From Promethearchaeota archaeon (GTDB lineage Archaea; Asgardarchaeota; Lokiarchaeia; Sigyniarchaeales; SOKP01), in assembly GCA_016839555.1 (NCBI GenBank), contig JAEOUA010000003.1:64001-128000 (forward strand): a DNA stretch of 64,000 nucleotides. The letters run 5' to 3'. Under the pieces are notes generated by a model. It made no database searches. It worked only from the letters and a program-made list of their open reading frames with translations, and was not told the DNA's origin. Every line of letters begins with the position of its first letter. Within the stretch, counting starts at the first letter, position 1. The position numbers were made by a program, and so were the translations under genes. Shown here piece after piece: positions 33,094 through 58,650 of this stretch.

Positions 33094-33178
33094 GCGGGAA
33101 TTGCCAAGTTTGGACAAAGGCGCTGGACTCAGAATCCAGTCCTATAGAGGTTCGGGAGTTCAAATCTCCCTTCCCGCA
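33094..33178 (+). tRNA. tRNA-Leu(CAG), intronless, CCA not encoded
   Basis: Acceptor GCGGGAA/TTCCCGC+A, D-stem GCC/GGC, anticodon stem CTGGA/TCCAG with CAG at 33130-33132, long variable arm CCT-ATAG-AGG, T-arm GGGAG-TTCAAAT-CTCCC. Confidence 0.97.
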
Positions 33179-51738: not shown

Positions 51739-52052
51739 TTGTCATATTCGTTGATAATATCGAAGATTTTGCATATTTTCTCCATAAAAGAATTATGGAT
51801 GAAATTTTTTATGAATTCAGAGAAAGGAAAAAGGATGAAGATCTTGGCAGCAAAACTGAAACAGAAGTGATATTTCACTTTCTTAGTAAGGTAGAATCTT
51901 CTTTAATTCTTTACGAAACAAAATTAATATTATCATCCCAAAATGAGGAGCAATTAATTAACCAAGCTCAAGAAATATTAAATAAGGTAGATAATTCTAT
52001 TAAATTTGTGAGAGGAAAAATTAGAGAGATTTTTTTATCTTACTCCTTATGA
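51735..52052 (+). CDS. Hypothetical protein
   Basis: 105-aa ORF with TTGA overlap on the upstream gene; 13-nt convergent overlap with aIF2-gamma. Confidence 0.55.
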   Translation: MIVIFVDNIEDFAYFLHKRIMDEIFYEFRERKKDEDLGSKTETEVIFHFLSKVESSLILYETKLILSSQNEEQLINQAQEILNKVDNSIKFVRGKIREIFLSYSL

Positions 52053-53596
52053 TCTACTCTCATTCCATAACCTATCAATCTGTATCTTCTATTAATGATT
52101 CTCGAAATCGCAAAAATAAAGTCGTTTGGAATACAAATTGGAGGATTCAAGTTAATTATATAACTATTTTTTAAGATCTTAGAAACAGTTCCTGCAGCCT
52201 TTTCTGTGCCCACTACGATAAGAAATTTTTCTCCATGCTTTAAATCATGCACTTTAATCATTTCCTCAGCTCCTATAACTCTATCTAATAAATGAACCTC
52301 TAATTCAACTTCATCTATTAATTCAGGCAAAGAGCCGGGTTTTCCGGCTAAATTTCCAATTAAAGCATCTCCTTTTGTCAAGGCGGGGTCCAATTTAGTC
52401 CCTAGTCCAATTAGACCGCCAGGTTTTGCTTTTTTTAAAAACTTATTACCTTGGCTTATACTGACTATTGTTGATTTTAAAGGTCTATATTGATTTTTTA
52501 CCTTCAATCCAGGACTTATTTCGACTTTATCTCCAATTTCAATCTTACCTTGTAATACCTGACCACCAATTACACCTCCAATAAGTTTATCAATTTCTTT
52601 CCCAGGTCTATTTACATCAAATGAACGAGCAATTAAAAATTCAAAATCTTGAGTTTCATCAAATTCAGGAGTAAGAATTACTTCTTGAATTGCTCTGACC
52701 ACAAGTTCGATATTAATACCAAATAAGGCTGATATGGGAATAATAGGTGCATTTTCTGCAACTGTTCCTTTTACAAATTCTTTTATTTGACGATAATTTT
52801 TTAAAGCATCTTCTTTAGTAACAGCATCAATTTTATTTTGAATAATAATAATATTTTCTATACCTGCAATATTTAATGCTGCCAAATGTTCTCTAGTTTG
52901 GGGTTGTGGACATGGTTCATTAGCAGCTATTAATAAACAAGCTCCATCCATAAGTGAGGCTCCACTCAACATTGTAGCCATTAATATTTCGTGTCCTGGA
53001 GCATCTACAAAAGAGATATTTCTTTTAAATTGTAATTGTCCTTTACATTCTGGGCATCTAAATCGAGGTTCCCCCTCTTTTCTAGCTTCATCGACCATAT
53101 ATGAAGTATAATATTTGTCGCATACTGGACAATGGAAAATAGTGGCATTTGAATAACCTAATTTAATCGAAATGCCACGTTCTTGCTCTTCTGAGTGTCT
53201 ATCGGTCCAATCTCCAGTTAAAATCTCAACTAATGTAGTTTTACCGTGATCCACATGTCCAACCAAACCCAGATTCATTTCAGCTTGCTTGTTCATTTGT
53301 TTTTTTAACTCTGATATAGGTATTTCTTCTGTTTTTTTCATTGGTGCTCTTTTTGGCTTTAATTCTTTTTCTATTATTTTCTCTGGAGCTTTAAATCCCT
53401 TTTCTTCAGTTTCTTGTAATAGTTTCTGGGCAGCTTTAATATATTTTAAAGCAGTTGATTCTCCAATACCTTTAACTTTTAATAAATCATCTACCGTTAG
53501 ATTTGCAAGTTTTTTAACAGAATTTATTCCTGCGGCTTCTAAACTCTCAGCAGTTGCTTTTCCAATCCCGGTAATATCTTCTAATTTCAATGACAT
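52040..53596 (-). CDS. eif2g: Translation initiation factor aIF2 gamma subunit with extra N-terminal helix-hairpin-helix domain
   Basis: GHVDHGKTT, RGISIKLGY, Zn knuckle, DAPGHE, QNKID, RSFDVNRPG, YRLIGYG; N-terminal ITGIGKATAESL...VKGIGESTA HhH. Confidence 0.95.
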   Translation of the reverse strand: MSLKLEDITGIGKATAESLEAAGINSVKKLANLTVDDLLKVKGIGESTALKYIKAAQKLLQETEEKGFKAPEKIIEKELKPKRAPMKKTEEIPISELKKQMNKQAEMNLGLVGHVDHGKTTLVEILTGDWTDRHSEEQERGISIKLGYSNATIFHCPVCDKYYTSYMVDEARKEGEPRFRCPECKGQLQFKRNISFVDAPGHEILMATMLSGASLMDGACLLIAANEPCPQPQTREHLAALNIAGIENIIIIQNKIDAVTKEDALKNYRQIKEFVKGTVAENAPIIPISALFGINIELVVRAIQEVILTPEFDETQDFEFLIARSFDVNRPGKEIDKLIGGVIGGQVLQGKIEIGDKVEISPGLKVKNQYRPLKSTIVSISQGNKFLKKAKPGGLIGLGTKLDPALTKGDALIGNLAGKPGSLPELIDEVELEVHLLDRVIGAEEMIKVHDLKHGEKFLIVVGTEKAAGTVSKILKNSYIINLNPPICIPNDFIFAISRIINRRYRLIGYGMRVDHKE

Positions 53597-56415: not shown

Positions 56416-56661
56416 ATTAATAAAACTTTTAATCATTTTTTTTAATCTTTAAAAATCTTAAGAGTAAAGCAGCCTTAGAAAAGAAAAAATAAGTTTTTGA
56501 ATCATTAATCCCTAAGATTCGACTTATTTATTCCTTTTAAATTTAACGCATAAACTTTAATTATAAGGGGTTCTTTATTCTATCCAAATTTAAACCATCA
56601 AGTTTTAAGTTATCAATTTCTTAGAAATTGAGATTACTTAAAAATCAACTATGGTTTTTTT

Positions 56662-56843
56662 TTTGGCCACATAAAATGCAGCTCTTCGCTGCAGCGCCGA
56701 AAGTTAAACTTTGTTGCGTTAGCGATAGTACTTCTGTTGAAATCAGCGGGAAACGCTAAACTGTAAGTTCGCTTACGGTCATAGTAACAAGGGATAGTAC
56801 CCGGTCCCATACCGAACCCGGAAACGCTTTTTATGTGGCTAAA
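56662..56843 (+). repeat. Inverted repeat enclosing the permuted 5S gene (15-bp stem plus BHB-like motif)
   Basis: TTTGGCCACATAAAA (56662-56676) pairs with TTTTATGTGGCTAAA (56829-56843) with one G-U; inner GCG/CGC and CCGA/CCGG helices with 3-nt bulges. Confidence 0.9.
56703..56823 (+). rRNA. rrf: 5S rRNA gene, circularly permuted (3' half 56703-56767, UUCG linker 56768-56771, 5' half 56772-56823)
   Basis: Loop C CCCATACCGAAC; helix I CTTACGG/CTGTAAG; helix II GTAACAAGG/CTTTGTTGC; helix III CCGGT/ACCCGG; TTAGCG/CGCTAA with loop E AGTA/GAAA; halves occur in reversed order. Confidence 0.92.
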
Positions 56844-56938
56844 TAATTTTTATAATGCTTCTTCTATCTATAGTATCCTTTTGCCATAATTTTTTAAACA
56901 ATTAATAATATCTTAAATATAATATATTATTTTATCGC

Positions 56939-57451
56939 TTGAATAATAATATGGTAAAGAAATACGTCATTTTTCTCAAAAGAATTTGGAGATCATGGTT
57001 TATAATCTTAGTAATAATTATTATTATCCTTGCGTTTTATAATTTAATTGCAGCCATAATTTTAACGGGTATAACACTTCTTTTATTTGTATTTTCTTAT
57101 ATTCCGTCCTTCTTCTTTAAAAATAGAGTAGTGCGCTTTCTAAAAAATTATTATAGGATTAAAGATGATGATATCATTAAGCATTTTAGCAATAAAAAAG
57201 ATAAAATAAAAAAGGTTCTATTTGATTTAGCACAGGATCAAGCAAAAAAAGATTGGCTCATCGTGTTTGTAAATAATCATTACATCTATTTTCATAAAGA
57301 TATAATTGAGAAATATAAAAATCTCTATCAAAAAGGTTACGGCGAAAAAAAGATTTTTGATCTATTACAAAAGATTGATATTGAGACGAGAGCAGAAATT
57401 AAAGCAATAAATACTACTTTAAAGGCACATAATAGACTTTCAGAAGAATAA
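56939..57451 (+). CDS. Hypothetical membrane protein (2 TM plus soluble C-terminal domain)
   Basis: Hydrophobic aa ~20-60 followed by a charged domain. Confidence 0.65.
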   Translation: MNNNMVKKYVIFLKRIWRSWFIILVIIIIILAFYNLIAAIILTGITLLLFVFSYIPSFFFKNRVVRFLKNYYRIKDDDIIKHFSNKKDKIKKVLFDLAQDQAKKDWLIVFVNNHYIYFHKDIIEKYKNLYQKGYGEKKIFDLLQKIDIETRAEIKAINTTLKAHNRLSEE

Positions 57452-57475: not shown

Positions 57476-57949
57476 TTATTTCCGATTTCCTTTTTTAATC
57501 ATTTGGATTTCCAATAAAATTCCTAGAGAATCTATTGTGTCAAAATAGGCAACATATTGCGTAAAGAATTGTCCAATAAACACCGCTTCTATATTATTCT
57601 TCTTAAATAATTCAATATACGGATCAAGATCTTCTACCATACCACTTATATGTTGAAGTCCTTCGTGTCCATTATCCAAGAATTCTTGATGTATTCCTTC
57701 ACCAGAGATTGGCTGAATAAGTTCAATTTGTTTGCCCCAATATCGACTCAATGCAAGTCTCAATGTGCAAATTGATTTTTTTCCCCGAAAAACAACTTCA
57801 GATGTTACATCTGGAAAAATTGCAAATTTCGGCATATTCCATAATTTCTCCATTACTTTAGTTTGTTTTTCAACATCTTTATATACATATCCTAATTGCA
57901 TAATTTCCAAATCTCCAATATTCATATCTAATGATTTTTCGTCTGACAT
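57476..57949 (-). CDS. VOC/glyoxalase-family protein (methylmalonyl-CoA epimerase-like), copy 1
   Basis: QLGYVYKD, QIELIQP, GLQHI, YFDT...LLE. Confidence 0.85.
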   Translation of the reverse strand: MSDEKSLDMNIGDLEIMQLGYVYKDVEKQTKVMEKLWNMPKFAIFPDVTSEVVFRGKKSICTLRLALSRYWGKQIELIQPISGEGIHQEFLDNGHEGLQHISGMVEDLDPYIELFKKNNIEAVFIGQFFTQYVAYFDTIDSLGILLEIQMIKKGNRK

Positions 57950-58176: not shown

Positions 58177-58650
58177 TTATTTTCGACTTCTTTTTTTAGT
58201 CATTTGTAATTCCAATAGAAAACCTAAAGAATCAGTTGTATCAAAATATGAAAAATACTGCTTTCCTATATTTCCACTAAATACAGCTTCTATATTATTC
58301 TTCTTAAATAATTCAATGTATGAATCAAGATCTTCTACCATACAACTTATATGTTGAAGTCCTTCGTGTCCATTATCCAAGAATTCTTGATGTATTCCTT
58401 CACCAGAGATTGGCTGAATAAGTTCAATTTGTTTGCCCCAATATCGAGTGAATGCAATTCTAGTAGTATAAACTGATTTTTTCCCCCGATAAATAACTTC
58501 ATTTTTGTTATCAGGAAGAATTGCAAATTTCGGCATTCCCCACACCTGCTCCATTATCTTAGCTTGTTTTTCAACATCCTTATAGACGTAGCCTAGTTGG
58601 AAAATTTCCAAATCTCCTATATTCATATCTAAAAGTTTTTGATCTGACAT
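58177..58650 (-). CDS. VOC/glyoxalase-family protein, copy 2
   Basis: Same length (157 aa) as copy 1 with long identical stretches. Confidence 0.85.
   Translation of the reverse strand: MSDQKLLDMNIGDLEIFQLGYVYKDVEKQAKIMEQVWGMPKFAILPDNKNEVIYRGKKSVYTTRIAFTRYWGKQIELIQPISGEGIHQEFLDNGHEGLQHISCMVEDLDSYIELFKKNNIEAVFSGNIGKQYFSYFDTTDSLGFLLELQMTKKRSRK

What the first reader, a model, noticed from the sequence alone, without database searches (positions are those of the whole stretch)
56703..56823. Circularly permuted 5S rRNA gene with native 5'/3' ends sealed by a UUCG tetraloop
Seen: a GC-richer island carries all 5S rRNA elements in swapped order. The 3' half (GTTAAACTTTGTTGC...AGTA...GGGAAACGCTAAACTGTAAG, 56703-56767) comes first, then TTCG, then the 5' half (CTTACGGTCATAG...CCCGGTCCCATACCGAACCCGGAA, 56772-56823). 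Helix I (CTGTAAG/CTTACGG), normally open-ended, is a hairpin capped by UUCG, and the break falls instead in loop B between GGAA and GTTAA. Helix II still pairs over 9 bp across the halves, which argues for selection. Established: permuted RNA genes are known for some tRNAs (Thermofilum, Cyanidioschyzon), Thermoproteus SRP RNA and some organellar 5S rRNAs. I do not know of a described permuted archaeal 5S gene, but could not search. Inference: the functional 5S rRNA is a 121-nt circle, or a re-opened or permuted molecule, that standard 5S models would miss or split.
Basis: partly seen in the sequence, partly recalled or inferred. Interest (0 to 1): 0.97.

Follow-up and report, generated by a model that had tools for sequence, protein, structure and literature searches.

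The report
Back-to-front 5S rRNA gene, spliced ring
This Asgard archaeon encodes its only detectable 5S ribosomal RNA with the two halves swapped, between tRNA-intron-type cut signals, so a normal 5S can form only by cutting the transcript and joining it into a 121-base ring, a layout shared by many Asgard lineages and not described in the papers I could search.

Summary
Observation confirmed. 56703-56823 is a circularly permuted 5S rRNA gene: a profile built only from colinear 5S genes scores the halves at 28 and 21 bits in swapped order and 64 bits after rearrangement. It is the only 5S-like locus in this Promethearchaeota (Lokiarchaeia) genome. Permuted genes occur in 112/125 genomes of the family and in about 20 other Asgard families; colinear genes occur in other families only. 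In 76 of 81 family loci the best-pairing motif gives the canonical joint. The joint moves between relatives and the motif moves with it, and relatives carry 30-nt BHB introns inside the 5S. EndA (alpha and beta) and RtcB are encoded. So splicing into a ring is well supported by sequence (0.9). That the ring stays closed in the ribosome is inference (0.7): I obtained no RNA data. Closest precedent: Thermoproteus SRP RNA. This scan has noted the same thing on other DNA (49 findings, 43+ genomes).

The parts
56637..56645 (+). TATA-like element, probable promoter of a stand-alone transcript (inferred)
   Evidence: A CTTA(T/A)(A/T)(A/T) word lies 28-31 nt before the stem start in 33 of 64 family loci, 30 nt in 21 of them; sequence
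56662..56676 (+). 5' arm of the outer processing stem (15 bp with 56829-56843)
   Evidence: Pair list, inverted repeat I1, fold of 56655-56850 z = -5.1; arm conserved in relatives
56677..56693 (+). Leader hairpin (6 bp, 5-nt loop), role unknown
   Evidence: a small hairpin at this place is seen in many relatives
56694..56702 (+). Leader strand of the relaxed BHB motif: h' GCG, central helix strand CCGA, bulge AA; predicted cut 56702|56703
   Evidence: Rank 1 of 71 candidate motifs by pairing alone; best of 441 neighbouring cut pairs; 3 of 4 central pairs, one A.C mismatch
56703..56767 (+). 3' half of 5S rRNA (end of helix III, loop B, helix II strand, helix V, loop E, helix IV, helix I strand), encoded first
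   Evidence: HMM model 50-114, 28.2 bits; covariation
56768..56771 (+). TTCG loop that joins the usual 3' and 5' ends of helix I
   Evidence: 4-nt loop on a 7-bp stem in 74 of 77 family loci
56772..56823 (+). 5' half of 5S rRNA (helix I strand, loop A, helix II strand, helix III, loop C, AA bulge), encoded second; 56818-56821 CCGG doubles as the BHB central-helix strand
   Evidence: RF00001 partial hit; HMM model 3-52, 20.9 bits
56824..56827 (+). Trailer strand of the BHB motif: third bulge base A and h' CGC; predicted cut 56823|56824
56829..56843 (+). 3' arm of the outer processing stem, followed by a T-rich stretch (possible transcript end, inferred)

Best explanation
This is the cell's working 5S rRNA gene, stored in permuted order. 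It is transcribed alone as a precursor of about 185 nt whose leader and trailer pair and present a relaxed BHB motif. The tRNA splicing endonuclease EndA cuts at 56702|56703 and 56823|56824, and RtcB joins the two new ends, which restores helix III and gives a covalently closed 121-nt ring. Helix I stays capped by its tetraloop, and the ring is the 5S of the large subunit. Shown: gene order, sole detectable copy, conserved structure, motif position, presence of the enzymes' genes. Inferred: transcription, cutting and joining (about 0.9), and that the ring is not re-opened (about 0.75 given joining).
For: Only 5S-like locus in G000; uL5 and uL18 genes present. Single-copy permuted gene in 112/125 family genomes, no colinear gene over cut-off in the family. 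Motif chosen by pairing alone gives the canonical joint at rank 1 in 76 of 81 loci, rank 2 in 3. Leader strand tracks the mature strand: CCGG/CCGG 37, CTGG/CCAG 16, CTGG/CCGG 18, CTGG/TCAG 5, CCGA/CCGG 3; h' pairs in 12 different letter combinations. In 18 loci the joint lies 16 nt earlier with its own BHB, and there the joint predicted for this window is written out in the DNA; these loci are not one clade (p-AU 3e-5, at least 3 changes). 29-31-nt BHB introns at four or more sites restore the canonical sequence exactly. EndA alpha (Y/H/K motifs visible) and beta subunits and RtcB are encoded; 17 of 28 tRNA genes called carry introns. For staying closed: 7 bp plus a 4-nt loop keeps the ring at 119-122 nt, the size of colinear sister genes (110-120 nt); E. 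coli ribosomes work with native 5S ends joined by a 4-nt connector (PMC7283268); Thermoproteus SRP RNA stays circular (PMC4731332).
Against: No RNA evidence was obtained here. The motif in this window is imperfect (A.C mismatch in the central helix, inner bulge not canonical), and I did not test whether this EndA has the specific loop linked to relaxed substrates (PMC5829648). The loop is variable (UUCG 44/77) and mostly not C-G closed. Permuted tRNAs are re-opened after circularisation (own knowledge; PMC4267664 mentions the joining only), so a ring can be an intermediate. G000 is 92% complete and its 23S gene was not found, so a second 5S in a gap cannot be excluded from this genome alone. 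The 81 loci are kin, not independent.
Confidence: 0.68

Rival explanations
1. The ring is only an intermediate: after EndA/RtcB joining, a nuclease opens the helix I loop and the ribosome holds an ordinary linear 5S, as with permuted tRNAs.
For: Same gene and motif evidence. Loop sequence varies. Circular 16S/23S intermediates are usually thought to be re-linearised (PMC12918454; PMC7758197). Several Asgard families have colinear genes.
Against: The spacer is 4 nt on a 7-bp stem in 74/77 loci, with nothing to trim and no second BHB; introns next to the loop are removed so as to rebuild stem and loop exactly; no known enzyme for such a cut (own knowledge); sealed ends work in E. coli.
Confidence: 0.19
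2. EndA (or another nuclease) only trims the precursor; the ends are not joined and a linear permuted 5S with a nick in helix III is used, like brown algal mitochondrial 5S.
For: Permuted linear 5S rRNAs exist in stramenopile mitochondria (PMC4267664). Two base pairs and helix II could hold the nick together.
Against: Cuts rebuild the canonical sequence to the base at three or more different joint positions, including loop C, and internal BHB introns need the ligase anyway; RtcB is present; the nick would lie in the uL5/uL18-binding domain (own knowledge).
Confidence: 0.08
3. The locus is a relic or an assembly artefact, and a colinear 5S gene lies in an unassembled part of the genome.
For: G000 is incomplete; 23S not found and 16S cut by a contig end.
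Against: Same layout, single copy, in 112/125 family genomes and in single-contig genomes of other families; strong covariation; no colinear gene over cut-off in any family genome searched, including two single-contig ones.
Confidence: 0.02

Closest known systems
Permuted, circular SRP RNA of Thermoproteus tenax / T. uzoniensis (Plagens et al. 2015, PMC4731332)
   Same: [quoted passage not shown]
   Different: Here the RNA is ribosomal; the trait spans about 20 families of a phylum rather than two species; the joint position moves between relatives; internal BHB introns occur; no RNA or enzyme data here.
Permuted tRNA genes (Thermofilum pendens, Cyanidioschyzon merolae; own knowledge, mentioned in PMC5829648 and PMC4267664)
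   Same: 3' half before 5' half, BHB between leader and trailer, circular product.
   Different: tRNA rings are opened at the acceptor stem by RNase P and tRNase Z and have a removable spacer; here the spacer is a 4-nt loop with no known opening step.
Permuted mitochondrial 5S rRNA of brown algae (Valach et al. 2014, PMC4267664)
   Same: 5S rRNA with helix I turned into a hairpin.
   Different: Ends lie at the three-way junction, the product stays linear and permuted, no BHB splicing.
BHB-circularised archaeal pre-16S/23S rRNA; circular 23S in ribosomes (PMC12918454); permuted 23S of Pyrococcus (PMC7758197)
   Same: EndA/RtcB-type circularisation of rRNA through a flanking stem with a BHB.
   Different: Those genes are colinear and the joint lies outside the functional core; PMC12918454 states that 5S is not processed this way. 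Minor 5S circles in Sulfolobus come from a colinear gene and were not validated (PMC3326292).
Engineered circularly permuted E. coli 5S fused into 23S (Huang et al. 2020, PMC7283268)
   Same: Native ends joined by a 4-nt connector, compatible with translation.
   Different: Artificial, fused to 23S, opened at loop C or D.

Membership tests
5S rRNA (Rfam RF00001) | Sequence matches the family over its whole length | tested here: met
   Only after rearrangement: 64.0 bits over model 3-114 of an HMM from 12 colinear genes that pass the Rfam cut-off. The Rfam model itself could be run only on the native order: 27.2 bits, under cut-off.
5S rRNA (Rfam RF00001) | Five helices, loops A-E, three-way junction | tested here: met
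   Helices I, II, IV, V covary; helix III is completed across the joint.
5S rRNA (Rfam RF00001) | Colinear gene with free ends at helix I | tested here: not met
   Halves swapped, helix I capped. A variant gene form, not a canonical member.
5S rRNA (Rfam RF00001) | Bound by uL5/uL18 in the large subunit | not testable with these tools
   Genes present; no solved structure recognisable as Asgard among uL18 hits.
BHB-spliced permuted RNA genes (Thermoproteus SRP RNA, Thermofilum tRNA) | 3' part encoded before 5' part | tested here: met
BHB-spliced permuted RNA genes (Thermoproteus SRP RNA, Thermofilum tRNA) | BHB or relaxed HBh' motif between leader and trailer with cuts at the mature ends | tested here: met
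   Relaxed form here (3/4 central pairs, 3/3 h'); 4/4 central pairs in 76 of 79 resolved family loci.
BHB-spliced permuted RNA genes (Thermoproteus SRP RNA, Thermofilum tRNA) | EndA of a type able to cut relaxed motifs, and a ligase | tested here: inconclusive
   Two EndA subunits, consistent with (alpha-beta)2, and RtcB; the specific loop was not checked and activity not tested.
BHB-spliced permuted RNA genes (Thermoproteus SRP RNA, Thermofilum tRNA) | Joined RNA observed | tested here: inconclusive
   No RNA holder listed; two pattern scans of metagenome contigs gave nothing and had no positive control.
BHB-spliced permuted RNA genes (Thermoproteus SRP RNA, Thermofilum tRNA) | Mature form circular (SRP type) or re-opened (tRNA type) | not testable with these tools
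   Only indirect: loop size census.
Organellar permuted 5S (mtPerm-5S of brown algae) | Ends at the three-way junction, linear permuted product, no splicing motif | tested here: not met
   Break in helix III with a BHB.

The most novel reading that the evidence does not exclude
Many Asgard lineages build ribosomes with a covalently closed, end-less 5S rRNA that exists only through tRNA-type splicing; the gene behaves like a disrupted tRNA gene, with a joint that relocates repeatedly and 30-nt BHB introns at several sites, and the permuted state may be ancestral in Asgard archaea, so that colinear 5S (including the one inherited by eukaryotes) was regained.
Probability: 0.5. Interest if true: 0.92.

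Novelty: new variant of a known kind. Interest (0 to 1): 0.82.

Why it matters
5S rRNA is treated as a universal, colinear, easily found gene. A permuted form explains why 5S genes could not be predicted in closed Asgard genomes (Wu et al. 2022, PMC8813620) and why such genomes fail rRNA-based quality checks. It would make the tRNA splicing machinery essential for ribosome assembly in close relatives of eukaryotes, give the first natural ring-shaped 5S, and add 5S to the RNAs with BHB introns (none found in the papers searched). Gene order and joint position are also discrete characters for Asgard phylogeny.

Tried and rejected
Sequencing runs: no RNA holder listed for 56560-56960, so no reads could be laid; not evidence either way. 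Pattern scans of metagenome contigs for the joined form: 0 matches twice, no positive control, uninformative. Minimum-energy folds do not recover the 5S shape, so structure rests on covariation, not on energy. The homology-only cut search fails, as expected, for intron-bearing loci and is shifted in some others by profile bias; some introns picked automatically for distant loci are spurious and were not counted; the intron census is. 5S introns of relatives have no significant match in G000. Model R1 also gives weak hits (26-39 bits) on the 3' half of colinear genes in family f2; these were not counted as permuted. G247's marginal RF00001 hit (38.4 bits) overlaps a permuted-model hit, and the copy inspected (L254) is permuted. 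Literature: six searches found no permuted, circular or intron-bearing archaeal 5S gene; subscription journals are not covered. Rejected: mis-assembly, chance match, 5S expansion segments as the reading of the 30-nt inserts (they carry BHB ends and restore the canonical sequence exactly, though retention was not excluded by RNA data).

Full report
1. Observation. The 121 bases at 56703-56823 hold both halves of a 5S rRNA in swapped order. Rfam RF00001 sees only the 5' half, at 27.2 bits, below its cut-off of 38. I built an HMM from 12 colinear 5S genes of a sister family. On the native sequence it gives two hits in reverse order (model 50-114, 28.2 bits; model 3-52, 20.9 bits). On the rearranged sequence it gives one hit of 64.0 bits, against 0.7 for the best of 300 shuffles. 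Of 289 cut pairs, 56703/56823 and two redundant shifts score best. Helix I is 7 bp capped by TTCG and helix II has 9 pairs.

2. Organism and copy number. The genome is 3.74 Mb in 12 contigs, 92% complete. A named record with the same kind of gene is a Promethearchaeota archaeon (L123), so this is a Lokiarchaeia-type Asgard archaeon; the name is by kinship of the gene, not given for G000. No other 5S-like locus was found by RF00001, the HMM or the permuted model. The gene stands alone between a peptidase C25 gene and an unknown ORF. The 16S gene is on another contig and cut by its end; 23S was not found, so the assembly has gaps. uL5 and uL18 are encoded.

3. Distribution. A covariance model of the part common to all permuted forms finds a gene in 112 of 125 genomes of the family, nearly always one copy, and in 10 of 11 genomes of five other families of the class. 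It also finds 32 genomes in 15 further families of the phylum; the 20 I fetched all read in permuted order. RF00001 passes its cut-off in other families (f2, f12, f15, f17, f21, f31) and never in this family. The two states are close to mutually exclusive. The structure covaries: 91% of cells paired, 20 of 28 pairs with double changes, 38-47% in slid controls (the structure was written from one member, which favours it somewhat). Mis-assembly and chance are excluded.

4. The gene is enclosed by a 15-bp stem, 56662-56676 with 56829-56843. Inside it the leader reads GCG CCGA AA|G and the trailer CCGG AA|A CGC. This is a relaxed BHB: outer helix GCG/CGC, a 3-nt bulge, a 4-position central helix with one A.C mismatch. 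Cutting after the second base of each bulge, the standard EndA rule (own knowledge), gives 56703 and 56823. By pairing alone this motif ranks first of 71 candidates and best of 441 neighbouring cut pairs. In 81 family loci the canonical joint is the top-ranked motif in 76 and second in 3. The leader strand, which is discarded, follows changes in the mature strand (CCGG/CCGG, CTGG/CCAG, CTGG/TCAG), so it is kept for pairing and is not a leftover duplicate. A TATA-like word lies about 30 nt before the stem in half of the loci.

5. Natural experiments in relatives. (a) In 18 loci the joint lies 16 nt earlier, at the start of loop C, with its own BHB; in those genes the joint predicted for this window is continuous in the DNA. 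These loci occur in four genera and are rejected as one clade on a tree of the shared 102 columns (p-AU 3e-5; at least 3, at most about 6 changes; few columns, so rough). Other families use joints shifted by one base, and one uses the 5' side of loop B. (b) 29 inserts of 29-31 nt at four sites (loop C, helix IV loop, helix IV 5' strand, helix I) have BHB ends, and their removal gives the canonical sequence. Each of these genes needs both a nuclease and a ligase whatever happens at the outer joint.

6. Enzymes. G000 encodes two EndA subunits, one with the Tyr/His/Lys motifs visible and one without the His, consistent with an (alpha-beta)2 enzyme, and one RtcB. This type cuts relaxed motifs when it has a specific loop (PMC5829648), which I did not check. 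17 of 28 tRNA genes called by ARAGORN carry introns.

7. Mechanism. Most likely: transcription from about 56665, folding of the flanking stem, two EndA cuts, RtcB ligation, refolding of CCGG from the BHB helix into helix III, assembly with uL5/uL18. I put joining at about 0.9. Whether the ring stays closed rests on indirect points: the loop is 4 nt on a 7-bp stem in 74 of 77 loci, which keeps the ring at 119-122 nt; there is no spacer to trim and no second motif; E. coli ribosomes work with the native ends joined by 4 nt (PMC7283268); the Thermoproteus SRP RNA stays circular (PMC4731332). Against: permuted tRNAs are re-opened, and the loop is variable. Overall 0.68 for the closed ring, 0.19 for re-opening, 0.08 for an unjoined molecule. 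I have no RNA evidence: no run was listed and two junction scans were empty and uncontrolled.

8. Comparison and novelty. It works like the Thermoproteus SRP RNA and meets the gene-level features of that kind; the RNA-level features are untested. It differs from algal mitochondrial permuted 5S, which is linear and unspliced, and from circular 16S/23S, whose genes are colinear; a 2026 paper says 5S is not processed by circularisation. Sulfolobus 5S circles were minor and unvalidated. A survey of 5S expansions does not cover these genes, and a paper on closed Heimdallarchaeum genomes could not predict a 5S gene. My searches found no description; subscription journals are not covered. Class: new variant of a known kind.

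9. Earlier notes of this scan. 49 findings in at least 43 genomes report the same thing, some with environmental RNA across the joint in other Asgard lineages. I had reached the BHB reading before consulting them, could not check their RNA claims, and do not count them as support; they gave me the identifier of the SRP paper.

Noticed in passing
L006, L012, L018, L021, L022, L023, L190-L203, L210, L212, L216, L225, L235, L236, L240, L257: BHB introns in 5S genes are almost all exactly 30 nt although their sequences and sites differ; L023 and L201 carry two. The length constraint is unexplained.
   Followed up: partly
L215 (G132), intron in loop C region: The 30-nt insert contains a 17-nt copy of the exon just upstream, which looks like intron birth by local duplication.
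   Followed up: no
L050, L255, L256: A 30-nt intron sits exactly at the permutation joint, so its outer BHB helix forms only with the trailer; suggests two-step splicing.
   Followed up: partly
L216, L225, L236 versus L213/L214, L234, L228: The closest helix-III-joint relatives of loop-C-joint genes carry the loop C intron, which hints that joint relocation and intron loss are linked, e.g. by conversion from a copy of the mature ring.
   Followed up: partly
L183, L184 (family f4, genus g16): Permuted genes with a good central helix but a weak outer helix; the most relaxed motifs seen.
   Followed up: partly
L262 (G165): The start of the permuted 5S is repeated about 170 nt downstream, a possible tandem copy; G247 has four permuted copies.
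   Followed up: no
window 52040-53596 (-): aIF2-gamma homologue with an extra N-terminal helix-hairpin-helix region of about 100 aa (RadA N-terminus-like).
   Followed up: no
window 56593-56658: Imperfect inverted repeat around the TATA-like element (arms 56603-56614/56632-56643), conserved in genera g1 and g3; possible factor-binding site.
   Followed up: partly
window 57476-57949 and 58177-58650 (-): Two tandem 157-aa glyoxalase-family paralogues.
   Followed up: no
window 33094-33178 (+): tRNA-Leu(CAG), intron-less; across the genome ARAGORN calls only 28 tRNAs, 17 with introns, so more disrupted tRNAs are probably missed.
   Followed up: no
Phylum sample, families f10, f25, f14, f16, f28, f29: Most genomes show neither a colinear 5S over cut-off nor a hit to the permuted model; they may hold divergent permuted or split forms.
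   Followed up: no
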